Part shown: piece by piece, positions 3,542 to 23,760 of the stretch | How the letters are laid out: every line of letters starts with the position of its first letter | Numbering within the stretch: position 1 is the first letter of the stretch | NCBI GenBank assembly: GCA_964354805.1 | Contig: CAYHBD010000043.1 | Span: forward strand, 1 to 43,382 | Origin: an uncultured archaeon | GTDB taxonomy: Archaea; Iainarchaeota; Iainarchaeia; Iainarchaeales; GCA-2688035 | Length of the DNA: 43,382 nt | Direction: 5' to 3' | Translations under genes and position numbers: made by a program | The notes under the pieces: generated by a model | Told to the model about the DNA's origin: nothing | The model's database searches: none | The model's input: only the letters and a program-made list of their open reading frames with translations

Positions 3542-5110
3542 TCATTTGACCTCATACAAGTTACTGCATTCATCGCTGTAAACCAGCAGGACTTTTCCTT
3601 CGGCAGCCATTTCCTCAATTGCCTGCATATTCCAGGGGTTCTTGTAGCATGTTGCCGCAATGTGCGTTATGCCCTCTTTCTTCAATTCATCGTAAAGCTG
3701 CTCTGAACCCAGCGAATCAAACCTTGTAACGTATTGGAAATCTTTTTTTTCGGATATGAATGAAACCTGCCTTGCCTTGTTTGGGTGAATTGCGACAACG
3801 CTGTCAGCCGGCAGGGTTTTAACGAATTGATACAAGGGAAGATGCTGTTCATAATCATCCCTGAAATGCATTGCATAAAAAGCTGAAAATGCAATTCCGT
3901 AGACTGCTGTAAGACAAAACAGGAACAGCATAAGCTGCAGCACTTTTTTGCTGTTCAATTCCTTGAAAGCAGCGGAAAAAGCAATTGCAAACAAGGGCAG
4001 GGCTGGAACAATCAGCCTGCTGTGAATGAATCTTCTGCCCCTTGCAAAAAGCAAAACAGCAAGCAAAATGAAGCAAAACAACAGCAGCGTGTGCTGCTTT
4101 TCTTTCTTAAGCACTCCCTGAAACAGCCCGAAGAAAATGAAAATCAGCAGAGGCCCTGTTACAAGGCTGAAAAGCAAAAATGCATCTGCCTCCTGGATGC
4201 CAAAAGGCATTGCATCAAAGGATTGGCTTAAAAAAAACCAGAAGCTGGCGTTGAATCTTGCAGGCAGGGCCAGAACAGAGTCAATTGAAAGCACAGGCAG
4301 GGCACTGCCTTCCAAAAGATAGGTTGTCTGTGTTTCTGTCAGCAAAAAGTCCCCTGTTCTGAAAAATGCCAGAAGAAACCAAACAGATGAAAGCAGCAAT
4401 GTTGCAAAAACAAATAACAGGACAATTGCCATTTTTTTGTGAGCATGCGCTTTGCCTTTTTTGATTAATTCAAACAGAAAAGCAAAAAAGAATGCGGGTA
4501 TGAGAATGGTTGCACTGACTTTGCTTAAAGCGCATGCTGCTATTGCAAAAGGCATTAAAACCAAAAAAACGCGTTTGCCTGTTTCAACAAAACGCCAGTA
4601 AACAAAAAAACAAAGCAGGACAAAAATGCTGGCAAAGGTTTCAGTGTAATTCAGGGCACCGAATATTATCAGCGAAGGGTGCACTGCAACAAAAGCAAGC
4701 CCAGGCAGGTAGTTTTTGGGAAAAAGCCTTTTCAGCAGCGCGAATGCCAAAAACAGCTGTATTGCCGAGAAAATGAATGGAAAAATCCTCGCGGTTGAAA
4801 GCGTGAAAGGCAGCTGAAAGAAAATGAATGGCAAAGCCGTTACAAAGTAATACAAAGGCGTGGTTATCGGGCCAGCAGACAGCATTTCAGGTGGCAACGC
4901 CCTGTTTTCCGCAACATAGCGCGTTATATTAAGGTGATACAAGGTATCGTTTAGCTCTGCATCAGGCAAAGTAAGCAGAACAAACAGCCTTGCAATCAAG
5001 CCAGCTGCAATTATTGCAACAAAAATTTTGTCTTGTGCGGGCAATGAAAAGAATTTCCCCCGCATTTCAATGGATTGTTGCTTCAAATATGGCAATATCG
5101 GTTTATTCAT
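3542..5110 (-). CDS. GT-C fold membrane glycosyltransferase (ArnT/PMT-like)
   Basis: Multi-TM; acidic first loop (DAELNDTLYH), TPLYY, ETFASIF, LSK, RLIVPALP; soluble C-terminal domain. Confidence 0.75.
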   Translation of the reverse strand: MNKPILPYLKQQSIEMRGKFFSLPAQDKIFVAIIAAGLIARLFVLLTLPDAELNDTLYHLNITRYVAENRALPPEMLSAGPITTPLYYFVTALPFIFFQLPFTLSTARIFPFIFSAIQLFLAFALLKRLFPKNYLPGLAFVAVHPSLIIFGALNYTETFASIFVLLCFFVYWRFVETGKRVFLVLMPFAIAACALSKVSATILIPAFFFAFLFELIKKGKAHAHKKMAIVLLFVFATLLLSSVWFLLAFFRTGDFLLTETQTTYLLEGSALPVLSIDSVLALPARFNASFWFFLSQSFDAMPFGIQEADAFLLFSLVTGPLLIFIFFGLFQGVLKKEKQHTLLLFCFILLAVLLFARGRRFIHSRLIVPALPLFAIAFSAAFKELNSKKVLQLMLFLFCLTAVYGIAFSAFYAMHFRDDYEQHLPLYQFVKTLPADSVVAIHPNKARQVSFISEKKDFQYVTRFDSLGSEQLYDELKKEGITHIAATCYKNPWNMQAIEEMAAEGKVLLVYSDECSNLYEVK

Positions 5111-5396
5111 ACATTAATACCTTTTTTTAATACAGCTAAGCTGAAAAGTTATTTAAACAACTTACTGCTTTTGTTTGGTACGATTGTCAAAAAATAAGTA
5201 TTTTTAATTAAATAATGCAATTTAGTCTTTAGGGTTTGGGGATGAAACCAATGCGATGGGAATTCGCAAAAAAAAAATTTAGTCTCTACAATAATTTCAC
5301 TTATATTTTCTGTTTGAGAATTTTCTAAAACAATTGCAGGCATTCAAGCTGAAAACAAGCTTAAAGCAGTTGCGGTAATGGATAGGTGGTAGAAAG

Positions 5397-6086
5397 GTGA
5401 GCATCACAGAAAAGACTTACAAAGAGGCCAAGCGTCATAGCAAAGCTTGGATAACAGGCAAAAAAAAGATGCGACCGATTTCCGAGATGATCATGGCAAT
5501 ATTCAACAAAGACAGCAGGGTAAACATTGCTGATATTGGCGGCATAGGGGAATCCTATTCTTTTTTCAAAGAACTGCTTCCTTACGCTGCGATTTGGACA
5601 GTAAACCATGTTGAAGAGCATATGAAGGGGTGCAAGAACTGCGTTTTGGAAGACTTCTCAGAGAAGATAAGCCTGCCTTCTGGAAAGTTTGACTTGGTTT
5701 TTTTGGGGGACACTCTGGAACATATGGCGGATACCGATACCCTTGTCGAGGAAATCTGCAGGATAACAAAATGCGGCGGTTTTCTCATATTGACCACGCC
5801 AAATATGGCAAGTTGGGTAAACCGCTTTTCACTGTTGTTTGGGTTTGCACCGACAAACTATCACCCATCGGATATAAGGTATGGGGCAATAACAGGCGCT
5901 AACCGCGCATCCTACCACAAGTCGGTATTTACCTTGCCGGCTCTGAAGTCGTTCCTAAAACAGCATGGCTTTGAGACCCTGAAAACCAGGGGCTTCAGTT
6001 ATCATAACATGCCAATTTGCAGGCTTGCAAGCCTGCTGCCCAAAACATGGCAGGAAGGCATAATAGTGTTGTGCAAAAAAAAATAG
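5397..6086 (+). CDS. Class I SAM-dependent methyltransferase
   Basis: IADIGG, FDLVFLGDTLEH, GGFLILTTPN. Confidence 0.85.
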   Translation: MSITEKTYKEAKRHSKAWITGKKKMRPISEMIMAIFNKDSRVNIADIGGIGESYSFFKELLPYAAIWTVNHVEEHMKGCKNCVLEDFSEKISLPSGKFDLVFLGDTLEHMADTDTLVEEICRITKCGGFLILTTPNMASWVNRFSLLFGFAPTNYHPSDIRYGAITGANRASYHKSVFTLPALKSFLKQHGFETLKTRGFSYHNMPICRLASLLPKTWQEGIIVLCKKK

Positions 6087-6103
6087 ACCGCAGGCGATAT
6101 AGT

Positions 6104-6196
6104 TATATCAAAGGACAAAAATAATTGTATAAAATGGTCCTTTGATATATATCAAAAGGCATTCAAAAAAAAACCATAATTAATGCCTTTTGATAT
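6104..6196. repeat. Tandem double inverted-repeat element, copy A
   Basis: Perfect 13-bp IR tatatcaaaggac (6104-6116) / gtcctttgatata (6137-6149), abutting a perfect 15-bp IR atatcaaaaggcatt (6149-6163) / aatgccttttgatat (6182-6196). Confidence 0.9.
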
Positions 6197-6229
6197 TAAA
6201 TTTGACAATAGCGCAGATATGTCTGGCGT

Positions 6230-7225
6230 TTGATTGCTATGCTTGCATCAAAAAATTTAGTAGTGCTGATTCCAGCATTCAACGAGCAGCAGACAATCGC
6301 AGGCGTAATCAAGCAAATCCCGAGAAAAATTCCCGGAATAAAAAAAGTTTTAGTGCTTGTTGTTGACGACGGCAGCAGCGATGCAACAGTGGAAAAAGCA
6401 AAGAAGGCAGGCGCTGACAGAATCGTTTCCCACAACACAAACAAGGGTCTTGGGGCAGCGTTCAAAACAGGCCTCAATGAAGGGCTTGCAATGGGCGCAG
6501 ACATAATAGTGAACATTGATGCCGACGGGCAATTCAACCCTGCGGACATTGAAAAGCTCATCAAGCCAATCCTGCAGAACAGGGCAGATGTTGTAACATG
6601 CAGCAGGTTCAAGGACAAGGCAATTTGCCCAAAAATGCCTTTCATTAAAAAATTCGGGAACAAGGTTTTCACTGCAGCAATCAACCTTTTCACAGGCAGC
6701 GGCTTCACTGATACGCAGTGCGGATTCAGGGCATACAGCAGGGAGGCTGCCTTAAGGGCAAACCTTTTCGCAAGATTCACTTACACCCAGGAGGTATTGA
6801 TTGACCTGATGCAGAAAGGCATGCGGATACGCGAGGTTGCATGCGAGGTCAAAGGCCAGAGGGAAGGGCAAAGCAAGGTCGTAAGGCACTGGTACAGCTA
6901 TGGGGCAAAGGCGCTGATAATTGTCCTGAGAACACTGCGGGACTACAAGCCGCTGCAGTTCTTCGGCTCAATCGGTTTGCTGTTCTTCTTAGCAGGCGCA
7001 ATCAGCGCATTTATTCTCTGGATAAGGCTTTTGCTGCTGCATAAAATCGACCCGTTTATGTGGGTTGTTTACGCTGACGTTATCCTAATTGTGCTTGGAT
7101 TCCTTTTGATGATTCTTGCACTGATTGCAGACATGCTGGACAGGCAGAGAAAGCTGCAGGAAGAGATATTGTACAAGCTGAAAAAGGAACAGCTGGAACA
7201 AATCCACGGCAAGCAAGGGCACTAA
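6230..7225 (+). CDS. GT2 polyprenyl-phosphate glycosyltransferase (DPM1-like) with C-terminal TM helices
   Basis: IPAFNE, VVDDGSSD, NKGLG, DADGQ, DTQCGFRA; alternative ATG at 6239. Confidence 0.92.
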   Translation: MIAMLASKNLVVLIPAFNEQQTIAGVIKQIPRKIPGIKKVLVLVVDDGSSDATVEKAKKAGADRIVSHNTNKGLGAAFKTGLNEGLAMGADIIVNIDADGQFNPADIEKLIKPILQNRADVVTCSRFKDKAICPKMPFIKKFGNKVFTAAINLFTGSGFTDTQCGFRAYSREAALRANLFARFTYTQEVLIDLMQKGMRIREVACEVKGQREGQSKVVRHWYSYGAKALIIVLRTLRDYKPLQFFGSIGLLFFLAGAISAFILWIRLLLLHKIDPFMWVVYADVILIVLGFLLMILALIADMLDRQRKLQEEILYKLKKEQLEQIHGKQGH

Positions 7226-7320
7226 CAACAGGCCAAGTAAATACTATTGGTAAAATTGTTTCTCTTCAATTGAATTTCAGCAAACCTTATAAAAACTTTC
7301 AAAGGGATTGTTTTAATACC

Positions 7321-8853
7321 ATGAACGCAAAAACACTGCTCATCCTTCCGCCGCGCACTGTGCAGATTACAGGGTCTTTGGAAGCGCACCAGCCGCCGCT
7401 TGGGCTGGCTTACCTTGCAGCAATGCTTGAAAGCAAGGGGCATAAAGTGAAAATAATTGACGCAGTAGCAGAGGGATTGAGCAATAAGGCAATGGTCAGC
7501 CAGCAATTTTTAAGGGTAGGCTTGAGTGATGAGGAGCTTGCCCGAAGAATCAAATCATATGCGCCTGATGTTGTAGGCATAAGCTGCATGTTCACAGCCT
7601 TTAAAGACGACGGCCTGAGGGTTGCGGCTATTGCAAAAGAAGCAATGCCTGATGCGCTTACTGTCCTTGGCGGAGCCCATGTTTCGGCAAACCCTGAGCA
7701 AACAGCCAGGGAACCAAACGCGGATATTGCAATATTCGGCGAAGGGGAATTGACATTGCTTGAAATCGTTGAACAGGTTGAAAAAGGCAAAAAGCCGGCC
7801 AAAATAGACGGCACTGCTGTCAAGAGCGGGAAAGGCGTTAAAAGAAACAAGCCCAGACAACTCCTGCCAAACCTTGACCTGCTGCCTTTTCCTGCAAGGC
7901 ATCTTTTGCCAATGGATATTTACTTCGGCCTGCAGAGGCAGAATTACGCTTTCAGCATGCGGTATCCCATAATAGAGCTTATCAGCAGCAGGGGATGCCC
8001 TGGCAAATGCGTTTTCTGCGCAGTACACGCAATCTGGGGGAGATGCTGGAGGCCAAGAAGCGCAGGCAATGTTGTCGATGAAATAGAATATTGCATGCAA
8101 AAATACGGAGCAAGGGAAGTAAATTTCACTGACGACAACATTTCACTATCAAAGAAAAGAATGATTGAAATCTGCAAAGAAATAATTGGCAGAAAGCTTG
8201 ACATTAAATGGCATACCCCGAACGGCATAGCAATCTGGACCCTTGACAAAGAAGTGCTGGCATGGATGCGCAAAAGCGGCTATTACAGGGCAAAGTTTGG
8301 CCTGGAAACAGGCAGCAGCAGAATGCAGAAATACATCGGAAAAAACATTGACCTTGCCTACGCAAAAGAAGTCATCAAAGAATGCAACAGGGCAGGGATT
8401 TGGACTGCTTCAAGTTTTATGATAGGTTTCCCTGATGAAACAGAGGAAGACATAAACCAAACAATTGAATTCGCAAATAGCACGCACCTCGACTTTGCCA
8501 GGTTTCTGATTGCACAGCCATATGCAGGCACGCAGTTATTCGACCAATTTGCGGAAAAAGGCCTGCTGCAGGGGAAACGCACAAAAGCAAGCAGCGCATT
8601 CCACACCTCTTACGATACAGCGCACCTCACGGCAAAACAGCTGAATGAAATAAGGATAAGCGCACACAAGCAATTTATGCGCAGCAGGGTCAAGCTGATG
8701 CTGAACCCAGGTTATTTCTTCACGGAATTCCTGCCAAAGGTTGCTTCAACCGAAGACTTCACGCATTTTGTGAGAAACGCGTTTACCCTGCTGAAAGGCA
8801 AAACCGCAGGGAAAAAGAAAACAGGCACAGTGCAGCAGGCAAGCGAAGACTGA
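7321..8853 (+). CDS. Cobalamin-binding radical SAM protein (paralog 1)
   Basis: PPLGLAYLAA, GGAH, GEGE, SRGCPGKCVFC, GLETG, FMIGFP, PYAGT. ATG 7321 preferred because a TTATAAAA box lies ~30 nt upstream. Confidence 0.92.
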   Translation: MNAKTLLILPPRTVQITGSLEAHQPPLGLAYLAAMLESKGHKVKIIDAVAEGLSNKAMVSQQFLRVGLSDEELARRIKSYAPDVVGISCMFTAFKDDGLRVAAIAKEAMPDALTVLGGAHVSANPEQTAREPNADIAIFGEGELTLLEIVEQVEKGKKPAKIDGTAVKSGKGVKRNKPRQLLPNLDLLPFPARHLLPMDIYFGLQRQNYAFSMRYPIIELISSRGCPGKCVFCAVHAIWGRCWRPRSAGNVVDEIEYCMQKYGAREVNFTDDNISLSKKRMIEICKEIIGRKLDIKWHTPNGIAIWTLDKEVLAWMRKSGYYRAKFGLETGSSRMQKYIGKNIDLAYAKEVIKECNRAGIWTASSFMIGFPDETEEDINQTIEFANSTHLDFARFLIAQPYAGTQLFDQFAEKGLLQGKRTKASSAFHTSYDTAHLTAKQLNEIRISAHKQFMRSRVKLMLNPGYFFTEFLPKVASTEDFTHFVRNAFTLLKGKTAGKKKTGTVQQASED

Positions 8854-8884: not shown

Positions 8885-10171
8885 TTAGTTCTTTTTTTTC
8901 CCGAGAACCGACAGCAAGTATTTTGCCCCGCTTGCCAGCAGTTTAGGGTTTTTTGCAATTCTTTTCAAAGCATAGCCTGGCCTGAGGTAAACGCTTTTGT
9001 ATGCTTTTTTGTACATGCTTTCAACCAATTCCCTGTTGAGGCAGCCGTACTCGTAGTATGCTTTGCCTGTGTAGCTTCCGTATTTGCTGAAATCCTTTAT
9101 CAGAAACTTCCCCTGTTTTTCAACCAAATCATATAACTGAGTGCCTGGGTAAGGCGTTGTAATAGTGAATTGGATTAAATCCAAATCCAGTTCCTTTGCG
9201 AAATCAATTGTTTCCTGCATTGTTTGCATGTCATCAAAAGGCAGTGCAATCATGAAGAAACCAATTGTTTCAATTCCAGCTTCCTTAGCCCAGCGCACTG
9301 CATCCCTAACCTGCTGCAAATTGATTCTTTTGCCTATTTTGTCCAGAACAGCCTGGTTTCCTGATTCAATGCCAAAGCTGAGCTGGTAGCAGCCAGCATT
9401 ATGCATCAGCCTAAGCAGCTGCGGGTCAACAGAATCAACCCTTACTCCATTCGGGCAATTCCACAAAATTTTAAAGCGCCTTTCAATCATTCCCTTGCAA
9501 ATTTCCTCAACTCTCTTCTTGTCAAGTGAAAAGTTGTCGTCAACAAAACCAATTTCCTTAACGCCATAATTTTCAATCAAATAGCCGATTTCGCTTAAAA
9601 CGTTTGCACTGCTTCTTTTCCTGTACGTGTTTCCAAAAACCCCTTTAAAGCAATAGATGCAGCTGAAAGGGCACCCCCTGCTTGACATAACAGAGAGATA
9701 GTTGTGCTTTCTTGTAACAGCCTTATACTCGTGCAAAGGCAGCCCGCTCCAATCAGGGAAAGGAAGAGTGTCCAGATCCTTGATCAGCTCGCTGTGCAGA
9801 ATTTTTTCCCTGCTTTCAAAAACACGCAAAATGCTATTTTCGCCCTCGCCAACAATCACCTTGTCAGCGTGCTGCAGGCATTCATTCGGAAAAATTGTTG
9901 CATGCGGACCCCCCATCACAACCTTTTTGCCTTGCCTTCTCAAATCGTCGCTCAGGGCAAAAGCCTTTGCAGCAGCAGGCGTGCAAACGCTCAGCCCAAC
10001 CCACTCGCTATCAATGCCTTCAATCTGCTGCCCTGCCTGCTGGTCAATCGGCTTCACAGCAATGCCCTGCCGCTTCAATACTGCTTGAAGGTAAGCGAGC
10101 CAAAGAGGCGGCGATGCATGCGCTGCGTAGACATCAGCAGCCAAATTTATTAAAGTGATTGAATCACGCAT
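8885..10171 (-). CDS. Cobalamin-binding radical SAM protein (paralog 2)
   Basis: PPLWLAYL, GGPHAT, GEGE, SRGCPFSCIYC, GIESG, PYPGT. Confidence 0.92.
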   Translation of the reverse strand: MRDSITLINLAADVYAAHASPPLWLAYLQAVLKRQGIAVKPIDQQAGQQIEGIDSEWVGLSVCTPAAAKAFALSDDLRRQGKKVVMGGPHATIFPNECLQHADKVIVGEGENSILRVFESREKILHSELIKDLDTLPFPDWSGLPLHEYKAVTRKHNYLSVMSSRGCPFSCIYCFKGVFGNTYRKRSSANVLSEIGYLIENYGVKEIGFVDDNFSLDKKRVEEICKGMIERRFKILWNCPNGVRVDSVDPQLLRLMHNAGCYQLSFGIESGNQAVLDKIGKRINLQQVRDAVRWAKEAGIETIGFFMIALPFDDMQTMQETIDFAKELDLDLIQFTITTPYPGTQLYDLVEKQGKFLIKDFSKYGSYTGKAYYEYGCLNRELVESMYKKAYKSVYLRPGYALKRIAKNPKLLASGAKYLLSVLGKKKN

Positions 10172-10376: not shown

Positions 10377-11792
10377 ATGAACATTGTTTTCTTGAACCCT
10401 CCTTTCAAGGAGGGCTACAACAGGGAAGTCAGGTTCCAGGCTGTTTCACCCCAAAAAGCACTGCACCCGCCGATAATGCTTGCATATGCAGCTGCTGTCT
10501 GCAGGCAACAGGGCCACAAAGTCGACTTAATTGACGCGCCCGCACTCGAGCTTTCAGCAGAGCAGACAATTGAAAGGATTGTGGCAATTAAGCCAAGCTA
10601 TGCTGTTCTGCTTACATCAACAGCATCAGTGCAGAGCGATGCAGCGCTTGCAAAAAAAATAGCAGCCCTAACAGGCGCTAAAACAGTTGCAGTAGGAGTG
10701 CACGCTACGGCAGCTCCAGAAGACACCCTGCAGAAAGGATTTGACATAGTTGCAAGAGGCGAATATGATTACACAATAAGGGACTTGGCCAATGGAACGG
10801 AATTGCGCAAAGTGCTGGGCATTTCTTTCAAAAAAGGAAAAAAAATAATTCACAATGAGCCACGCCCTCTAATACGCAACCTTGATGAACTGCCTTTTCC
10901 AGCAAGGGAATTCCTGCCGAATGAAAAATATTACAGCGCATTGTACAAGAACCCATTCACTTTTGTCCTGGCAGGCAGGGGCTGCCCTAACCAGTGCATT
11001 TTCTGCGCCGGCCCGAAACTGATGTTTGGCAGGGCTTACAGGCTGAGGTCACCGCAAAACATTGTTGCAGAATTGAAGCATCTTAAGGAAAACTTTAATT
11101 TCAAAAGCGTCCTCTTCAATGACGACACTTTGAATGTAAACAAAAGCCATCTGCTTGAATTATGCAGCCTCATGGTAAAAGAAAAAATCGACTTGCCCTG
11201 GGCTGCCTACAGCAGGGTTGACACTGTTGACAGGGAGATAGCAGCAGCAATGAAAAAAGCAGGCTGCTTTTTGGTAAAGGTCGGCTTTGAGTCAGGCTGC
11301 AATGAATTGCTGCAGTCAATGAAAAAAGGCCCAAGGGCAACAACAGAACAGGCAATTAAATGCGCCCACTATTTCAAAGAGGCAGGCATCCAGGTGCATG
11401 GAACATTTGTTTTCGGAATGCCAGGCGAAACAGCGGAAACAATAAGAAAAACAATTGATTTCGCAAAAAAGCTTGACATTGATTTCGTTCAATTCAGCAT
11501 AGCCCAGCCTTATCCAGGCACAGAATTTTACAATTACCTTGAAAGCAACGGCATGCTATGCTTCAATGAATGGAGCGACTACCTTGATGCAGAGGGCAGA
11601 ATCACCCCTATATTTGAGTACCCGCATTTAAGCAAGAGCGAGATGTGCTACTGGATAAAGCAGGCATACAAAGAATACTATTTGAGGCCAAGCTATATCC
11701 TTAAAGCACTAAGGCAGAGGGCAACAAACTGGAATCTGCTCAAAACAAGCATTTCAAGCGCCTTCAATCTGATTCAGTACATGAGAAGCTGA
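10377..11792 (+). CDS. Cobalamin-binding radical SAM protein (paralog 3, HpnJ-like features)
   Basis: PPIMLAYAAA, GVHAT, RGEYD, GRGCPNQCIFC, GFESG, HGTFVFGMPGE, PYPGT. Confidence 0.92.
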   Translation: MNIVFLNPPFKEGYNREVRFQAVSPQKALHPPIMLAYAAAVCRQQGHKVDLIDAPALELSAEQTIERIVAIKPSYAVLLTSTASVQSDAALAKKIAALTGAKTVAVGVHATAAPEDTLQKGFDIVARGEYDYTIRDLANGTELRKVLGISFKKGKKIIHNEPRPLIRNLDELPFPAREFLPNEKYYSALYKNPFTFVLAGRGCPNQCIFCAGPKLMFGRAYRLRSPQNIVAELKHLKENFNFKSVLFNDDTLNVNKSHLLELCSLMVKEKIDLPWAAYSRVDTVDREIAAAMKKAGCFLVKVGFESGCNELLQSMKKGPRATTEQAIKCAHYFKEAGIQVHGTFVFGMPGETAETIRKTIDFAKKLDIDFVQFSIAQPYPGTEFYNYLESNGMLCFNEWSDYLDAEGRITPIFEYPHLSKSEMCYWIKQAYKEYYLRPSYILKALRQRATNWNLLKTSISSAFNLIQYMRS

Positions 11793-18076: not shown

Positions 18077-19489
18077 TCAGCTACGCATTATTGTAAGAAA
18101 GCCCTTTGCCAGGATTTTAATGTCCTCAATTCCCCTGATTGACAGAACCCTCTGCAAAAGGTAACTCGGCCTTAAATAGAATTCCCCGTAAGCCTTTTTA
18201 TGCAATTCTATTAACTCCGGCCCACTCAATCCTTTTGGAACATACAATGGCTTTTCCAAAAAATTGAAGTCTGGAACTATTTCATCCAGCCAATAAGATG
18301 GCCTGCTCAGCTCGCCGTTTTTCACTATCCGGCTGTAGGCATCAGTTCCAGGCCAAGGCATGAAAAAAGTGAATGTCGCAATAGTTGGATTCAACTGCTT
18401 TGCAAAACTGATTGTTTGCAGTATGTCCTGCCGTGTTTCACCAGGCAACCCAACAATGAAATAGCCCCTAATGCCAATGCCGACTTTTTTTGTCAAAGCA
18501 AATGTTTCCAAAACCTTTTCCTTTGAAAAACCCTTTCTAATTGAATCAAGCACTGGCTGGCTGCCGCTTTCAACGCCGTAAGCAATATACTGGCATCCTG
18601 CCTCTTTCAGGCTTTGCAGCATCGGCCTGTCAACGCAGTCAACCCTTGCCTCGCAGCTAAACGTTAGGTCCCAATGCTGCTCCTTAATCAATTCACAAAT
18701 CTTTATCACCCTTTTCTTGTCAACAGTGAAGTTGTCATCCCAGATGCCGATGTCCCTTGCCTTATACTTTTCAACCAACAACTGTATTTCCCCAATCACT
18801 CTTTCAGGCGAATGCGCCCTGAATGACCTGCCAAAGATATTCTTATCGCAGAAAGTGCAGTTAAAAGGGCAGCCCCTGCTTGTGATAAGGCAGTGCGAGG
18901 GCATCCTCTTGGACCTGGCCCCGCTGCCTGTGTACAAGTGCATAGGCAACAAGTGCCTTGCCGGCAAAGGCAGCTCATCAATGTTCTTGATGAAAGGCCT
19001 CTCTCCGGTGAAAACAGGCTTTTTGTTCTTTTTGAAATAAACCCCCTTGACTTTTGCAATGCTTTTTCCTTTCTCGGCAGCGCCGACCAGTTCGGTTATA
19101 GTCCTCTCGCCTTCCCCGCACACAACAAAGTCAACACTGCCCTGCCCTATTACCTCAAGCGGGATTGCCGTCGCGTGGGGCCCGCCGAAAATAATCGTTG
19201 CACCGCTTGCAGCTTTTATGGCGTCAACCGCTTCAAAAGCCCTTTTCACAAAAGAGGTGTAAGCGCTCACTCCGACAAAATCAAAATGCTGCGCACCTGC
19301 AGAAATTCTTTCTATGCTGGTTTCCTCAGCAATGCCGTCAATGATGCGCACATTGTGGCCAGCCTGCTCAAGAGCAGCAGCGATGTACGCAAGGCCCAAA
19401 GGCTCGACCTTGCTTTGGGCAACAGCCGCGCCTCTCCTGTAAAGCTCTGCCTTTGAAAGGGGCGGGTTTATGAGCAAAACACTTGCCAA
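18077..19489 (-). CDS. Cobalamin-binding radical SAM protein (paralog 4)
   Basis: EPLGLAYIAA, GGPHAT, GEGE, SRGCPFNCTFC, GVESG, YFIVGLPGE, PWPGT. Confidence 0.92.
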   Translation of the reverse strand: MASVLLINPPLSKAELYRRGAAVAQSKVEPLGLAYIAAALEQAGHNVRIIDGIAEETSIERISAGAQHFDFVGVSAYTSFVKRAFEAVDAIKAASGATIIFGGPHATAIPLEVIGQGSVDFVVCGEGERTITELVGAAEKGKSIAKVKGVYFKKNKKPVFTGERPFIKNIDELPLPARHLLPMHLYTGSGARSKRMPSHCLITSRGCPFNCTFCDKNIFGRSFRAHSPERVIGEIQLLVEKYKARDIGIWDDNFTVDKKRVIKICELIKEQHWDLTFSCEARVDCVDRPMLQSLKEAGCQYIAYGVESGSQPVLDSIRKGFSKEKVLETFALTKKVGIGIRGYFIVGLPGETRQDILQTISFAKQLNPTIATFTFFMPWPGTDAYSRIVKNGELSRPSYWLDEIVPDFNFLEKPLYVPKGLSGPELIELHKKAYGEFYLRPSYLLQRVLSIRGIEDIKILAKGFLTIMRS

Positions 19490-19732
19490 AACAAAACACT
19501 TCCAGTAAAAGATTAAGCAAAAAACGTTAAAAAGAGCTTTGCATGCCGCTTAGCGAAACTCCCTCTCCAAGAAACTTTTGGAAAATCGATTCATCAAAAA
19601 GCCTTTTTTGCTAATGCAAAAAAGCCTTGGGAAAAAAATGCCTTCGGCAAAAGTGGCAATAAATAAACTTTATATGCCACAAAAAAATGCCGGAAATTTT
19701 CATAAAAAAAAACGCCGATTGCAAAAGCGGCC

Positions 19733-21229
19733 CTATTGTTTTCTCTTCAGGACAAACCCGTAGTTGAATGTCTTGTAAAGGGGCTTCTGCATTTTCTGCG
19801 TTTTCACGACCTCGTAATTCTCGCGCAGGTATTCGTATATTTTGTCTTCTCCCTGCAGCGGCTGCTCTGTCCTGCTGAAATTAATCACAAAGAGCGGCTT
19901 TGTTTCGCGCATTGACTGGATTGACTCAAGCTCATACAACTGCTGCGCTTCAGCGCCAAAAAATGGCTGGTAAATGTAACGCGTTGCTGGCTTCCTCAGG
20001 CAGAAGAAATACATCTCCTCATCCCACCAGGTAACATGAATCCTGTCATCAGGAGAACTGTTCTGCTTTACGTATGCCGCGATTTCAAACAGGTCATTGA
20101 AATCGTTGTGGAAAAAGAACTGCGGAAGGTAGGCGGCCGGTCCCACAATGCTTGCAAAAAAAACCAGTATAACAAACAGCCGCAGCAAAGGCATTGCATT
20201 AAATCCCTGCAATTTGAATCTTCCACCCCTCAGAAAGGCAGCCTCAAAAAGCAGCCCGAAGAAAATCGAAAACGGCGGCACAAGTGGTGCAAAGTGGCCG
20301 CAGCAGCCCAGAACCGGCAGCAAAGTCGGTGCTGCAAGAATAAACCAGGCCAGAACAAGAGCAATCTTTTTTCTCTCTTTTTCAGGCTTTTCCCTGAAGA
20401 AAAAAAGCATGGCAAGCACTGGCACTGAGACAAACAAAAAAAGCGCGGCAAGCACGCCAACCGCGCCAATTGCTGTGGTCAATTTGAAGGCAAACAGCGG
20501 CGCGCTCTGCAAATCGTGCAGTATTGCCTGGCCTACGAAATCACTGAAAGCGTTGTTTGCGATGAGGTAAAGGAGGAAAATGAACGGGAAAAGAGCGCAA
20601 GAGAAAAGAAATGCGGCCAGGTGCCGCATGTTCAGCTTTGCCCTCAGCAGCATGAACAAAAGCAGCCCTATTGAGAGGAAAAGCATTGTCTGCTTCAGCA
20701 GAACCAAGCCCGAAATAAGAAAGCCGACTGCAAGCAGGCTGGGCATTTTTCTTTTCTCAAGGAAACAAAAAAGCGCATAGAACAGGGCAACGGAAAAAAG
20801 CATCAGGAAAGGCTCGATGAGTATGTTCCAGCTGACTGTGAAAGCGCCCCAAATGACGTAGAAAAAAGACGCAAGCAGTGCCGTTCTCTCATTAAGCATT
20901 TTTTTGCACAGCAGGAAGAAAACAGCCAGGGTGCACGTGTTCACCGCCAGAATGAACAGCCTGCTTATGACAAAATCCGGGGGGAAAACCGAATAGAGCG
21001 CCGCGAAAATGAAATATATGCCAGGCGAATACATTGAGAAAAATTCCTTGTACAAAACAGTGCCCTGCAGCAGCAGCCAGCCGCCTGTCGTGTAAATGCC
21101 CTCGTCAGGGTTTGGCCTTGCAAGAAGCAAAGCAAGAACCAGGGCAATCTGCAATAATGCGATAACCAAAAAAGCCGCCCTGGCATTGCTTGAAAATTTT
21201 CCGAAAAAACGTTTAAATGAAAAAACCAA
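19733..21229 (-). CDS. GT-C fold membrane glycosyltransferase (ArnT/PMT-like)
   Basis: NPDEGIY first-loop DE motif, LYKEFF..SPG, EPF, LKQ, HFAPLVP; soluble C-terminal domain. Confidence 0.82.
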   Translation of the reverse strand: MVFSFKRFFGKFSSNARAAFLVIALLQIALVLALLLARPNPDEGIYTTGGWLLLQGTVLYKEFFSMYSPGIYFIFAALYSVFPPDFVISRLFILAVNTCTLAVFFLLCKKMLNERTALLASFFYVIWGAFTVSWNILIEPFLMLFSVALFYALFCFLEKRKMPSLLAVGFLISGLVLLKQTMLFLSIGLLLFMLLRAKLNMRHLAAFLFSCALFPFIFLLYLIANNAFSDFVGQAILHDLQSAPLFAFKLTTAIGAVGVLAALFLFVSVPVLAMLFFFREKPEKERKKIALVLAWFILAAPTLLPVLGCCGHFAPLVPPFSIFFGLLFEAAFLRGGRFKLQGFNAMPLLRLFVILVFFASIVGPAAYLPQFFFHNDFNDLFEIAAYVKQNSSPDDRIHVTWWDEEMYFFCLRKPATRYIYQPFFGAEAQQLYELESIQSMRETKPLFVINFSRTEQPLQGEDKIYEYLRENYEVVKTQKMQKPLYKTFNYGFVLKRKQ

Positions 21230-21242
21230 AAAAAATCACACC

Positions 21243-21785
21243 CTATTTTCTAGGTATCTTCCTGAACTTTATTACATCGGTAAGGCCCCAGACGCTTTTC
21301 TCCATTTCCACGGCAAAGTAGCCTCTGAAGAATTTTTTCCATTCTTTCTTTGTTTTTATGTTCACGTGGTCGTGCTTGAAGTTAGAACCTGCAATGTTCG
21401 TGAACAAAAACCAGACAAGCTGCGCAAACAGGCTTCCGCTGAAAGAAGAGAAAACAAAAACGCCGTTGTCCCTGAGGACCCTGTGGACCTCGGCCCTGGC
21501 TTTCTCGGCTTTTGGCACGTGCTCGAAAATCTCTGTTGCGACAACCGCGTCGAAGTGCTTAGGGGGAAAAGGTATCCTCTCAATGCTGCCCTGCCTGAAA
21601 TCAAAATCAGCTTGCCTGCACTTCTTCAAGTCCATGCCTGTGCCCCTGCCAAGCATCTTCAAAAAAGCGCCGTCTTCAATGGTTTTGCATGGCCCGCAGC
21701 AGCCGATATCCAAAACCTTTTTTGCCCCGCCAACGAATTCAACAGCCGCCTTGTAGCGCCGCCTGTGCCATGACTCCCTGAACAT
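21243..21785 (-). CDS. Class I SAM-dependent methyltransferase
   Basis: VLDIGC, GMD, FDAVVATEIFEH, RVLRDNG. ATG 21785 follows a GGTG SD-like motif; the track start is 21812. Confidence 0.85.
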   Translation of the reverse strand: MFRESWHRRRYKAAVEFVGGAKKVLDIGCCGPCKTIEDGAFLKMLGRGTGMDLKKCRQADFDFRQGSIERIPFPPKHFDAVVATEIFEHVPKAEKARAEVHRVLRDNGVFVFSSFSGSLFAQLVWFLFTNIAGSNFKHDHVNIKTKKEWKKFFRGYFAVEMEKSVWGLTDVIKFRKIPRK

Positions 21786-21865
21786 TAAACACACCAACAA
21801 AGCATTAAACAAGGAAATGAATTAAATAACAAACGTTGACCTCAACCATCTTTTCAACATTTGTA

Positions 21866-22591
21866 CTACTGCCTGGACCTTAATGCCGAACGAAGCTTGA
21901 AAAGCTGCCACAGCATTTTTACTGTATTCAGGCCAACCCGCATCTTGCTTCCCTTGACATGGCTCCACTCGATTGCTATCACGCCTGTTCTTGCGCCTTT
22001 TGCTTTTGCCCTTGCAATTAATTCGACATCAAAAACCCACCTGTTTGAAACCATTTGCCTTGCAATTTCCTTTGCAAGCGGCGCCCTCATTCCCTTAAAG
22101 CCGCATAATACATCTTTTACATTGAAATTGAACAACAATGCAACCGTTGTGTTGAAGCCCCAGCTTAGAAAACGCCTGTACAACGGCTGCCCTGCAATGA
22201 TCCTTGCCTTTTCTGTTTTCCTGTTTCCAACAACAAGGTCATTGCCCTGCAAAGCATCAAACATTGCACTCAGCTGCGATGCGGGCGTTGCACCATCTGC
22301 ATCCATAAAGCAGACAAAGCTGCCTTTTGCTGCAAGTATGCCTGTTTTGACAGCGTTTCCCTTGCCCATGTTTGGCTTGTAGGAAATAATCTTTATCTTG
22401 CCTTCAAATTGTTTAAGGATGCTGAGCGTTGCATCGCTGCTGCCGTCATCTACCACGATTATTTCCTCAATGAAGTTATTTTTTTCCTTAAAAAACAAAA
22501 GGGTCTGCAGAAAGGGCTTTATTCTCTTTTCTTCATTGAATGCAGGAACTATGACAGAAATGGTTTCTTTGCTTTTAGTCATTTCAAACAA
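21866..22591 (-). CDS. GT2 dolichyl-phosphate glycosyltransferase (ALG5/DPG-synthase-like)
   Basis: VPAFNE, VVDDGSSD, NMGKG, DADG, DVLCGFK, WVFDVEL, GSK; alternative ATG at 22582. Confidence 0.92.
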   Translation of the reverse strand: MFEMTKSKETISVIVPAFNEEKRIKPFLQTLLFFKEKNNFIEEIIVVDDGSSDATLSILKQFEGKIKIISYKPNMGKGNAVKTGILAAKGSFVCFMDADGATPASQLSAMFDALQGNDLVVGNRKTEKARIIAGQPLYRRFLSWGFNTTVALLFNFNVKDVLCGFKGMRAPLAKEIARQMVSNRWVFDVELIARAKAKGARTGVIAIEWSHVKGSKMRVGLNTVKMLWQLFKLRSALRSRQ

Positions 22592-22642
22592 CTGCTTTTT
22601 TTCTTCAAATCACTAAAAAAAAATAAATAATTCTTTTTAAAT

Positions 22643-22731
22643 TATAGCAAATGGCATTAATTTTTGAACATTTTATTTTCATTTGCTATATGTAAAAGAC
22701 AATCGTTTAATTATTTATGTCTTTTACTATA
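22643..22731. repeat. Tandem double inverted-repeat element, copy B (homologous to 6104-6196)
   Basis: 11-bp IR tatagcaaatg (22643-22653) / catttgctata (22680-22690), next to a 10-bp IR gtaaaagaca (22692-22701) / tgtcttttac (22718-22727). Confidence 0.88.
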
Positions 22732-22788
22732 AAATGTTTTTTTAAACCCAAACCAATAAAGCAAAAAACCAATTTTAAAAATTTATAT

Positions 22789-23760
22789 TTAAAAAGCAAA
22801 GCGAACTTTTTTTTCAGCCTGAAAGAAAATAAAGCCTGTTAAGCCGAGCAACAGGGCGCAAAATAGTATAAGCAGCGAAAAAGAAACAGCTGAATCCGCT
22901 GTTATGCCCACCAAGCCAAGGAAAAAAATAAGGCCGGCCTCCCTTGTGCCAATGCCGCTGAATGCGATTGGCAGCACGCTTAACAATTCAACAAGCGGCA
23001 TTATTGCAATAAGGTAAACAAAGGAAACATTGAGGCCAAGGGAATTGGCAATTAAATAGTATTGCAATATTCCCACAATCCAGCAAAAAAAAGTAAGCAA
23101 TAAAATCATTAAAAGGAACAATTTTTTTGATTTATATACAGCCACCCCTTCAAAGAACTGGTTAAAGCCGCCCCTAAAATTGCTCTGCAGCCTTTTTGGA
23201 ATTAAATGCCTGTAAAAAGGCTTTACAAAAAACAAAACAATTTCTTTTTTCGTTAAAATGAACACAAGCGCAATAAACGCCATGAAAAACAAAAGCAATG
23301 GCAGAATCAGTTCAGCCTCTAAAATGAAATGAAAAGACACAATAGCAAAGCCAACCAATGAAAGCAAGAACAAAGCAGCAACATCAAAAAATCTTTCAAT
23401 TACAACAGCGGTAAGGCCTTTGCCTGCTACAACCCCTGTTTTGCTTGCAAAGTAGAAGCTTTTAACCAAGTCACCTGACCTGCCAGGGCTTATTATTGAA
23501 AAGAAAAAACCAATCAGCCAAATCCTGGCGGAATCAAATAAACTCAATTTAACAGCAAAGGTGTTAACCAAAAGAGCCTGCTTGAATGCTTTGAGCAAAA
23601 CACTTGGAACGATTGCGATTAACGCAATTGAAAAAAGCAACGGATTCAACCGCAAAAAAATCCCGATTATTTTGCTTGGGCCGATTGCGAAAACAATGAA
23701 AAGGAAAACAATCAAGCCAATTAATCCGAGGTAACGCAGTAACCGCATAAAAACCAACAA
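22789..23760 (-). CDS. UPF0104 / LPG-synthase TM domain flippase-like protein (AglD2-like)
   Basis: ISPGRSGDLVK, ERFFD, LPIAFSGIGTREA; probable ATG at 23748. Confidence 0.88.
   Translation of the reverse strand: MLVFMRLLRYLGLIGLIVFLFIVFAIGPSKIIGIFLRLNPLLFSIALIAIVPSVLLKAFKQALLVNTFAVKLSLFDSARIWLIGFFFSIISPGRSGDLVKSFYFASKTGVVAGKGLTAVVIERFFDVAALFLLSLVGFAIVSFHFILEAELILPLLLFFMAFIALVFILTKKEIVLFFVKPFYRHLIPKRLQSNFRGGFNQFFEGVAVYKSKKLFLLMILLLTFFCWIVGILQYYLIANSLGLNVSFVYLIAIMPLVELLSVLPIAFSGIGTREAGLIFFLGLVGITADSAVSFSLLILFCALLLGLTGFIFFQAEKKVRFAF

What the first reader, a model, noticed from the sequence alone, without database searches (positions are those of the whole stretch)
6104..6196. ~90-nt double-hairpin element upstream of a GT2 gene (copy A), covarying with copy B
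Seen: two abutting perfect IRs (13 and 15 bp, spacers 20 and 18 nt). All four arms are variants of ATATCAAA(A)GG, and the junction tttgatatatatcaaa is itself palindromic. The element aligns end to end with the reverse complement of 22644-22731 (first 23 nt 19/23 identical, last 19 nt 17/19). Arm differences are compensatory: tcaaaggac/gtcctttga becomes gtaaaagac/gtcttttac, and atcaaaag/cttttgat becomes agcaaatg/catttgct. Inference: symmetry is being maintained, as expected for a structured RNA or ssDNA element, a recombination site or a multi-site operator. It does not match the attC consensus ends.
Basis: partly seen in the sequence, partly recalled or inferred. Interest (0 to 1): 0.8.

Follow-up and report, generated by a model that had tools for sequence, protein, structure and literature searches.

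The report
Double-hairpin miniature transposon, DPANN archaea
The two look-alike hairpin pairs in front of the two sugar-transferase genes are copies of a small, gene-less jumping DNA element scattered through the genomes of some tiny Iainarchaeota archaea; they are not a switch dedicated to those genes.

Summary
Copy A (window 6104-6196) is two perfect inverted repeats, copy B is its diverged reverse-complement relative, and the arm differences are compensatory.

They are not a GT2-specific pair. This 1.38-Mb DPANN genome holds 10 full copies and one interrupted copy, in three subfamilies. A covariance model finds the family in 28 of 151 sampled genomes of the phylum, with 0 to more than 30 copies per genome and a patchy spread even within genera.

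Across 46 copies, 91% of stem cells pair and 16 of 22 pairs change on both sides.

- It is about 90 bp, with ends TAGCAAA...TTTGCTA and no gene.
- It is always intergenic.
- It is flanked by a duplicated TA (57 of 72 copies) or a perfect 3-bp repeat (14 of 72). Copy A has TTA/TTA.
- The closed genome GW2011_AR10 holds an empty and a filled version of one site, differing by the element plus one TA.

Nine orthologous GT2 loci lack the element, and the neighbours of 29 copies are unrelated genes. None of ten transposase families tested tracks the family.

This scan found the family before on other DNA. It is a new member of a known kind, of modest interest.

The parts
6106..6195 (+). Copy A, element core (TATCAAAGG...CTTTTGATA, 90 bp), subfamily A
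   Evidence: Covariance-model hit at 78.6 bits. It is 95% identical to the copy at contig C35:4010-4100.
6103..6105 (+). Left copy of the 3-bp target duplication TTA of copy A
   Evidence: Read from the sequence. TTA directly flanks both ends. The two sister copies have TCA/TCA and TAA/TAA.
6196..6198 (+). Right copy of the target duplication TTA of copy A, followed by AATTT. Together these read ATATTAAATTT, a TATA-like stretch 38-45 nt before the GT2 ATG.
   Evidence: The promoter-like TTTAAA/TTTATA peak in this genome lies 26-40 nt before start codons.
6104..6149 (+). Hairpin 1 of copy A (13-bp arms, 20-nt loop)
6149..6196 (+). Hairpin 2 of copy A (15-bp arms, 18-nt loop)
22645..22729 (-). 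Copy B, element core (TAGTAAAAG...CATTTGCTA, 85 bp), subfamily B
   Evidence: Covariance-model hit at 85.6 bits. It is 85% identical to the copy on C10 and 82% to the copy on C28.
22730..22731 (-). TA flanking the 5' end of copy B (the TA/TA class of target duplication)
22643..22644 (-). TA flanking the 3' end of copy B
6239..7225 (+). GT2 glycosyltransferase gene downstream of copy A. It is a neighbour, not part of the element.
   Evidence: Pfam PF00535, E = 1.4e-25. Orthologues in 21 of 22 genomes of the family. The nine orthologous loci checked lack the element.
21866..22582 (-). Second GT2 gene, downstream of copy B. It is a neighbour and only 30% identical to the first GT2.

Best explanation
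Both copies belong to a family of about 90-bp non-autonomous DNA transposons (MITEs) of Iainarchaeota (DPANN) archaea.

Shown:
- Each element has terminal inverted repeats TAGCAAA...TTTGCTA (TATCAAA...TTTGATA in copy A's subfamily).
- It consists of two palindromic half-units, each with a 9-15-bp stem and a conserved AT-rich loop of about 20 nt. Loop 1 carries TTGAAC and loop 2 carries GTTCAA.
- All four arms share the basal TAGCAAA. The outer 4-6 bp of each stem are specific to that hairpin and change together.
- The element inserts at T(N)A in AT-rich intergenic DNA and duplicates TA or a 3-bp target.

Inferred:
- A transposase acting in trans makes a 2-3-nt staggered cut at the target. That enzyme is not identified.
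- The stems are kept paired because the element needs the fold as extruded or single-stranded DNA during mobilisation, or because one arm is repaired from the other. The data do not point to host gene control.
- The position in front of two GT2 genes reflects a preference or tolerance for AT-rich, promoter-proximal spacers, not a shared function.
For: Dispersed family:
- The genome has 10 full copies and 1 interrupted copy.
- 12 of 61 relatives and 28 of 151 sampled genomes of the phylum have hits, patchy within genera (for example 4 of 17 and 1 of 7), with 0 to more than 30 copies per genome.

Insertion shown directly:
- In the closed genome GW2011_AR10, one paralogous site reads ...CATTCGC-TA-GTCGC...
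- Three others read ...CATTCGC-TA-[90-nt element]-TA-GTCGC....

Target duplication, 72 copies:
- 57 have TA on both sides.
- 14 have perfect 3-bp direct repeats (TAA x7, TTA x5, TCA x1, TAG x1).
- 1 has neither.
- Copy A has TTA/TTA; its sisters have TCA/TCA and TAA/TAA.

Other support:
- Elements are nested inside each other.
- All 31 copies examined lie between genes, in every gene arrangement.
- Fifty neighbouring genes fall in 66 unrelated Pfam families; GT2 occurs 3 times, 2 of them in this window.
- Copy A is 95% identical to the C35 copy but 69% to copy B.
- Nine GT2 orthologue loci lack the element.
- Stems covary: 91.3% of cells paired, 16 of 22 pairs with two-sided changes, 0 of 500 shuffles as high.
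- There is no Rfam match.
Against: - No autonomous partner was found. In five element-rich genomes none of ten transposase Pfam families tracks the element, and none was found in all five.
- IS630-type DDE_3, DDE_Tnp_1_2, DDE_Tnp_1_3, DDE_Tnp_4, rve and DDE_Tnp_2 were not found in any of the five. Y1, DDE_Tnp_1 and OrfB each occur in only two of the five.
- GW2011_AR10, which has the most copies, has only an 86-aa DDE remnant.
- TA is its own reverse complement, so for 57 copies a duplication cannot be told from a longer terminal repeat. The case rests on one empty/filled pair and the 14 three-base repeats.
- A mixed 2-bp and 3-bp duplication is unusual for a single enzyme.
- An ordinary MITE needs only its two outer ends, so the strict upkeep of the inner arms is not explained by transposition alone.
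- No population-level empty allele could be found for the window's own copies.
Confidence: 0.8

Rival explanations
1. It is a REP doublet (REPIN/BIME-like element) moved as single-stranded DNA by a Y1 HUH transposase (RAYT or IS200-type). The hairpins would be the recognition structures.
For: The element is a doublet of short palindromes and is dispersed between genes. Its stems covary, as expected if the fold is recognised. This genome has two Y1 transposase genes, one on the contig that carries a copy and about 3 kb from it. G.T and A.C mismatches show no bias to one strand (15 against 24), which fits a DNA fold.
Against: Y1/HUH transposition makes no target duplication, yet these elements carry TA or 3-bp direct repeats, and one empty/filled pair differs by the element plus TA. 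GW2011_AR10, G006 and G057 have many copies and no Y1 gene. The flanks of the two Y1 genes carry no copy of the end motif.
Confidence: 0.06
2. One reading: a cis-regulatory element (structured leader RNA or multi-site operator) shared by the two GT2 genes.
For: Both window copies lie 43 and 62 nt upstream of a GT2 start codon and point the same way as the gene. Arm changes are compensatory. One further copy array in GW2011_AR10 also sits beside a GT2 gene.
Against: Only 3 of 50 flanking genes are GT2, and the rest are unrelated housekeeping genes. Copies occur in tandem, divergent and convergent spacers and in both orientations: 13 with and 7 against the genes' direction, p = 0.26. Nine GT2 orthologue loci lack the element. 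Copy number runs from 0 to more than 30 among relatives. Copies A and B belong to different subfamilies.
Confidence: 0.03
3. It is a mobile element that the host has co-opted at some sites, as a portable promoter or boundary module, or as a 3'-end RNA hairpin that stabilises or terminates transcripts. This does not exclude the MITE reading.
For: 28 of 31 copies adjoin at least one gene start. TTTAAA-like boxes occur within 22 nt of the right end in 21 of 71 copies, against 11 of 71 on the left. The genome's promoter-like TTTAAA/TTTATA peak lies 26-40 nt before start codons. In copy A and the C28 copy the first TATA-like box after the element lies about 34-45 nt before the ATG. In same-direction gene pairs the element starts 17-119 nt after the upstream stop codon.
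Against: The right/left difference is weak (p = 0.07). Distances to the next start codon vary from 24 to more than 600 nt. The TATA-like boxes lie in the flank, not in the element, so they may only reflect a preference for AT-rich targets. There are no expression data.
Confidence: 0.2

Closest known systems
Prokaryotic MITEs in general (definition in PMC3184786; review PMC10969869), including the archaeal SM1-SM4 of Sulfolobus and haloarchaeal MITEs
   Same: It is under 200 bp and has terminal inverted repeats, flanking target duplications and no transposase gene. It is multicopy, mostly intergenic, folds into stable hairpins, varies in copy number between relatives, and forms nested clusters.
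   Different: The fold is two separate local hairpins with hairpin-specific, covarying outer stems, not one long foldback of the two ends. No parent insertion sequence was found. The host lineage (Iainarchaeota, DPANN) is not among the archaeal MITE hosts listed in the 2024 review. A bulk census (PMC11602168) counted MITEs in DPANN genomes, but I could not check whether it includes this family.
Correia elements (NEMIS/CREE) of Neisseria
   Same: From my own knowledge: about 100-150 bp, TA target duplication, no transposase identified, often just upstream of genes. The review PMC10969869 records promoters at their ends, RNase III processing of their hairpins and inversion of the element.
   Different: They are bacterial and unrelated in sequence. 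They have 26-bp terminal repeats around an IHF site rather than two stem-loops. No promoter or processing function has been shown for the archaeal family.
IS5-family subgroups (IS427, IS1031, ISL2) and eukaryotic PIF/Harbinger; IS630/Tc1-mariner
   Same: The target duplications match. From my own knowledge, IS630/Tc1-mariner duplicates TA, and the IS5 subgroups and PIF/Harbinger duplicate TNA or 2-4 bp.
   Different: No intact member of these transposase families (DDE_Tnp_1, DDE_Tnp_1_2, DDE_Tnp_1_3, DDE_Tnp_4, DDE_3) co-occurs with the element in all five genomes tested. The one intact DDE_Tnp_1 element, in G006, has no related ends.
REP doublets (REPIN/BIME) moved by RAYT
   Same: Both are doublets of short palindromes, dispersed between genes, with covarying stems.
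   Different: The archaeal elements have target duplications and clear terminal inverted repeats. Y1 genes are absent from the genomes with the most copies.

Membership tests
MITE (miniature inverted-repeat transposable element) | Small size (usually under 200 bp, at most about 400 bp) and no transposase gene | tested here: met
   Element cores are 85-93 bp in 70 of the 71 copies tabulated; one row reads 96 bp. There is no room for a gene.
MITE (miniature inverted-repeat transposable element) | Terminal inverted repeats | tested here: met
   TAGCAAA...TTTGCTA (or TATCAAA...TTTGATA) lies at the ends of nearly all of the 71 copies tabulated.
MITE (miniature inverted-repeat transposable element) | Flanking target-site duplication | tested here: met
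   14 of 72 copies have perfect 3-bp direct repeats and 57 of 72 have TA/TA. One empty/filled pair differs by the element plus TA. For the TA class alone, duplication and a longer terminal repeat cannot be told apart.
MITE (miniature inverted-repeat transposable element) | Multicopy and dispersed, with presence/absence differences between related genomes | tested here: met
   This genome has 11 copies. Hits occur in 28 of 151 sampled genomes of the phylum and are patchy within genera. The element is absent from nine orthologous GT2 loci.
MITE (miniature inverted-repeat transposable element) | Mobilised in trans by a transposase whose own element has matching ends | tested here: not met
   None of ten transposase Pfam families tracks the element across five element-rich genomes, and none was found in all five. 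No kb-scale unit bounded by the ends was found in 200 kb of GW2011_AR10. Orphan MITEs such as Correia are accepted members, so this does not exclude membership.
REP/REPIN with RAYT | No target duplication, and co-occurrence with a Y1 (RAYT) gene flanked by the repeats | tested here: not met
   Target duplications are present. Y1 is absent from GW2011_AR10, G006 and G057. The flanks of this genome's Y1 genes lack the motif.
Integron attC site | Sites bound gene cassettes in an array next to an integron integrase | tested here: not met
   Copies are dispersed singly over 10 contigs beside core genes such as glutamine synthetase, PGK and SAM synthetase. There is no cassette array. I did not search for an integrase.
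Any Rfam RNA family | Match to a curated covariance model | tested here: not met
   The window gave 0 matches at gathering thresholds. The C35 and C28 copies gave no match at E <= 1.

The most novel reading that the evidence does not exclude
The family is moved by an enzyme that is not among the known transposase families. The enzyme may even be supplied from outside the cell, by a host archaeon or a virus of these episymbionts. It would recognise the two extruded hairpins rather than duplex ends. This would explain why closed, element-rich genomes such as GW2011_AR10 show recent insertions yet carry no recognisable transposase, and why the inner arms are kept perfectly paired. A weaker version is that the elements serve as mobile promoter or boundary modules in these streamlined genomes.
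Probability: 0.15. Interest if true: 0.6.

Novelty: new member of a known kind. Interest (0 to 1): 0.3.

Why it matters
It removes a tempting false lead: there is no shared riboswitch or operator for the two GT2 genes. It also documents an active-looking transposable element in DPANN archaea, whose tiny genomes are usually described as streamlined and poor in mobile DNA. The family has a clear anatomy, a direct empty/filled site, a T(N)A target and no known transposase. That makes it a usable marker for strain-level genome change in Iainarchaeota and a defined search problem for the missing enzyme. For annotation, a covariance model of the family would stop these hairpins from being reported again and again as candidate RNAs. 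This scan has already met the family on several other genomes.

Tried and rejected
- Rfam. Gathering thresholds on the window and E <= 1 on two other copies gave nothing on the element.
- tRNA/tmRNA scan of the window: none (for Rfam, for ARAGORN).
- RNA-strand test. G.T against A.C mismatches in the stems were 15 against 24, so no bias points to a transcribed strand.
- Link to GT2 genes: rejected.
- Co-duplication of the element with a GT2 paralogue: rejected. The two GT2 proteins are 30% identical and the two copies belong to different subfamilies.
- Composite transposon bounded by copies A and B: rejected. Copy A carries its own TTA/TTA duplication and the two copies are only 69% identical.
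- A 4-bp TATA duplication: rejected by the empty site, which reads TA.
- Transposase partners. Ten Pfam families were tested in five genomes and none tracks the element. The ends of the intact DDE_Tnp_1 element in G006 are unrelated.
- Autonomous long version. I looked for half-elements 0.5-3 kb apart in all loci held and in 200 kb of GW2011_AR10. Two gaps of about 2 kb hold unrelated genes, not a repeat.
- Viral contigs. Ten pattern hits, none confirmed by the covariance model.
- Bacterial pattern hits in genome contigs: none confirmed.
- The supplementary MITE lists of PMC11602168 are not held as text, so I could not check whether the family is already in that census.

Full report
**1. The observation**

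Copy A is as described. The repeat finder reports arms 6104-6116/6137-6149 (13 nt, 100% complementary, 20 nt apart) and 6149-6163/6182-6196 (15 nt, 100%, 18 nt apart). The two hairpins share one base at a palindromic TTTGATATATATCAAA junction.

The reverse complement of about 22643-22731 aligns over its whole length with copy A (69% identity over the cores). It folds into two 10-bp hairpins. The quoted arm differences are there and keep the pairing.

Folded as single-stranded DNA, copy A has z = -7.5 and copy B z = -4.5 against dinucleotide shuffles, equally on both strands.

**2. It is a dispersed family, not a pair**

The window is contig C43 of a 1.38-Mb, 49-contig, 44% G+C genome with an archaeal SSU rRNA. 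Earlier notes of this scan call it a DPANN (Iainarchaeota) archaeon.

A profile HMM and a covariance model built from the copies find 10 full copies on 9 contigs, plus one copy on C11 interrupted by a small insert.

The copies fall into three subfamilies:
- A, C35 and C9. A and C35 are 95% identical.
- B, C10 and C28, at 80-85%.
- C42, C2, C16 and C25, at 87-93%.

Copy A is far closer to a copy on another contig than to copy B, and the two GT2 proteins are only 30% identical. So the two window copies arrived independently and were not inherited through a gene duplication.

**3. Anatomy**

Forty-six best-strand copies from 12 genomes were aligned to the model (alignment printed). The consensus reads:

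TAGCAAA-xxxx-[loop 1, with TAATTGAACA]-xxxx-TTTGCA-T(A/C)-TAGCAAA-yyyy-[loop 2, with AAAGTTCAAAAAT]-yyyy-TTTGCTA

- All four arms share the basal TAGCAAA, or TATCAAA in copy A's subfamily.
- The outer 4-6 bp differ between hairpin 1 and hairpin 2 but match within each hairpin.
- The loops are at least as conserved as the stems. They carry TTGAAC and GTTCAA, which are reverse complements, so the two halves are roughly inverted copies of each other.

**4. Covariation**

On that alignment 91.3% of the 1012 cells form standard pairs, against 33-45% when the 3' partners are slid by 1-3 columns. Sixteen of 22 pairs have changes on both sides (132 cells). None of 500 column shuffles reaches these values. 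The alignment was fitted to the structure, which inflates such counts somewhat. The perfect arms seen in raw sequence show the same thing.

Non-standard cells give no strand signal: G.T 15 against A.C 24. This does not favour an RNA read from one strand.

In the C9 copy, the 20-nt loop of hairpin 1 is the exact reverse complement (20 of 20) of the loop in the C35 copy. That is a clean flip between the inverted arms, and it is a DNA-level event.

**5. Distribution**

The model finds the family in 12 of 61 relatives and in 28 of 151 sampled genomes of the phylum at E <= 1e-6. All positive genomes are in the same order.

The spread is patchy even within genera: 4 of 17, 2 of 15 and 1 of 7 across. 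Match counts run from 0 to 66 per genome. Most copies match on both strands, so that is about 30 or more copies.

A loose pattern scan of 185,579 species genomes, followed by the model, confirmed only archaeal MAGs. Their labels are Iainarchaeum, Micrarchaeota, Woesearchaeota, Bilamarchaeaceae, Thaumarchaeota and 'uncultured archaeon'. It also confirmed the closed genome 'archaeon GW2011_AR10', CP010424.1. No bacterial hit and none of ten viral contigs was confirmed.

**6. Evidence of insertion**

In GW2011_AR10 the elements are nested. One locus carries a composite of two older elements whose inner junction reads CATTCGC-TA-GTCGC. Three other loci carry the same composite with a 90-nt element at exactly that point, reading CATTCGC-TA-[TAGC...GCTA]-TA-GTCGC. 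This is an empty and a filled site that differ by the element plus one TA.

Flanks of 72 copies:

| Flank class | Copies |
|---|---|
| TA on both sides | 57 |
| Perfect 3-bp direct repeat (TAA 7, TTA 5, TCA 1, TAG 1) | 14 |
| Neither | 1 |

Copy A has TTA/TTA and its sisters have TCA/TCA and TAA/TAA. TA is self-complementary, so the TA class alone cannot separate a duplication from a longer terminal repeat. The empty site settles that one case, and a 4-bp TATA duplication is excluded by it.

I therefore read the target as T(N)A with a 2- or 3-bp duplication. This agrees with an earlier report of this scan on another genome (3-bp TNA) and adds the TA class.

**7. Context**

All 31 copies with enough flank lie between genes:
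- 13 in same-direction gene pairs, pointing with the genes;
- 7 in same-direction pairs, pointing against them (p = 0.26);
- 8 between divergent genes;
- 3 between convergent genes.

Fifty neighbouring genes of 29 copies match 66 unrelated Pfam families, among them glutamine synthetase, PGK, SAM synthetase, HerA, Maf and an M50 peptidase. GT2 occurs three times, two of them in this window.

The first GT2 has orthologues at 60-80% identity in 21 of 22 genomes of the family. None of the nine loci checked has the element, including one from a genome that carries the family elsewhere. Their upstream regions are conserved among themselves and differ from this window's.

Right flanks contain TTTAAA-like boxes about twice as often as left flanks: 21 against 11 of 71, p = 0.07. 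In this genome such boxes peak 26-40 nt before start codons. This fits insertion into, or survival in, AT-rich promoter-proximal DNA. It is too weak to claim that the element supplies promoters.

**8. What moves it**

This is unknown. In five element-rich genomes, none of ten transposase families tracks the element.
- Y1/IS200 occurs only in this genome (two genes) and in G016.
- DDE_Tnp_1 occurs as one intact gene in G006, whose ends are unrelated, and as an 86-aa remnant in GW2011_AR10.
- OrfB occurs only in G057 and G006.
- DDE_3 (IS630), DDE_Tnp_1_2, DDE_Tnp_1_3, DDE_Tnp_4, rve and DDE_Tnp_2 were found nowhere.

No kb-scale unit bounded by the element's ends turned up in the loci held or in 200 kb of GW2011_AR10. 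There, 52 hairpin units (40 in one stretch and 12 in the other) form arrays of two to five.

The duplication argues against a Y1/HUH mechanism and for a staggered cut by a DDE-type enzyme. That is an inference.

**9. Comparison with what is known**

The element meets the working definition of a MITE in PMC3184786: small, with terminal inverted repeats and target duplications, no transposase gene, and able to fold. It shows the copy-number variation and nesting described for MITEs in the review PMC10969869.

That review lists archaeal MITEs from Sulfolobus, Halobacterium, Haloquadratum and Desulfurococcus, but none from DPANN. A bulk census (PMC11602168) counted MITEs in DPANN genomes. Its sequence lists are not held here, so I could not check for this family.

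By features, the nearest analogue is the Correia element of Neisseria, which has a TA duplication and no known transposase and often sits upstream of genes. The TA duplication and the missing transposase are from my own knowledge.

What sets this family apart is its two-hairpin build with hairpin-specific covarying stems and conserved loops. Transposition through the two outer ends alone does not explain that.

**10. Verdict**

The GT2-linked regulatory reading is not supported. The element is an orphan MITE family of Iainarchaeota, already met by this scan on other genomes. It is a new member of a known kind, of modest interest.

The open questions are which enzyme moves it and why the inner arms stay paired.

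So I could not test whether the window's own two sites vary between strains.

Noticed in passing
window 3542-8853 and 18077-23760: There are two partly parallel glycosylation modules in mirror orientation. Each has a PMT_2-type membrane glycosyltransferase, a SAM methyltransferase, a GT2 and a B12-binding radical SAM gene. The window holds four B12-radical-SAM genes in all: 7270-8853, 8885-10171, 10377-11792 and 18077-19489.
   Followed up: partly
contig C9:173655-173743 (L005:5656-5744, minus strand): The 20-nt loop of hairpin 1 is the exact reverse complement of the loop in the sister copy on C35 (20 of 20), while the arms are unchanged. This is a clean flip of the segment between the 13-bp inverted arms.
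   Followed up: partly
contig C11:955-1106 (L010): This copy is interrupted within the 3' arm of hairpin 1 by an insert of about 50 nt that itself forms small GC-richer hairpins. The insert may belong to the other hairpin-repeat family that this scan reported for the genome.
   Followed up: no
contig C35:572-1015 (L058, minus strand) and contig C13:1382-1729: There are two intact IS200-type Y1 transposase genes (Pfam E = 1e-29). Their flanks have no copy of the double-hairpin end motif.
   Followed up: partly
G038 = CP010424.1 (archaeon GW2011_AR10), 1,100,000-1,240,000 and 70,000-130,000: Hairpin units cluster in arrays of two to five, with elements inserted into the loop or the central TA of other elements. 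One array lies beside an Mrr-type restriction endonuclease gene and an 86-aa DDE transposase remnant. Another abuts a 470-aa GT2 gene.
   Followed up: partly
L197-L204 (orthologous GT2 loci in related genomes), about 30-130 nt upstream of the GT2 start: Six of these eight loci (L198-L201, L203, L204; partly L197) share an upstream block, roughly TATTTAAAG...GTACGTTAATCAAAAAATAACGGTTTTAAAA...TTAAAG. It looks like a shared divergent promoter region and is absent from this window, where the element and a methyltransferase gene lie instead.
   Followed up: no
L001:4103-4520 (contig C35, downstream of the C35 copy): An unusually long non-coding spacer of about 420 nt, with repeated 'ttttttctttcc...ttttgaa' stretches, precedes a small cysteine-rich ORF starting near 4526.
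   Followed up: no
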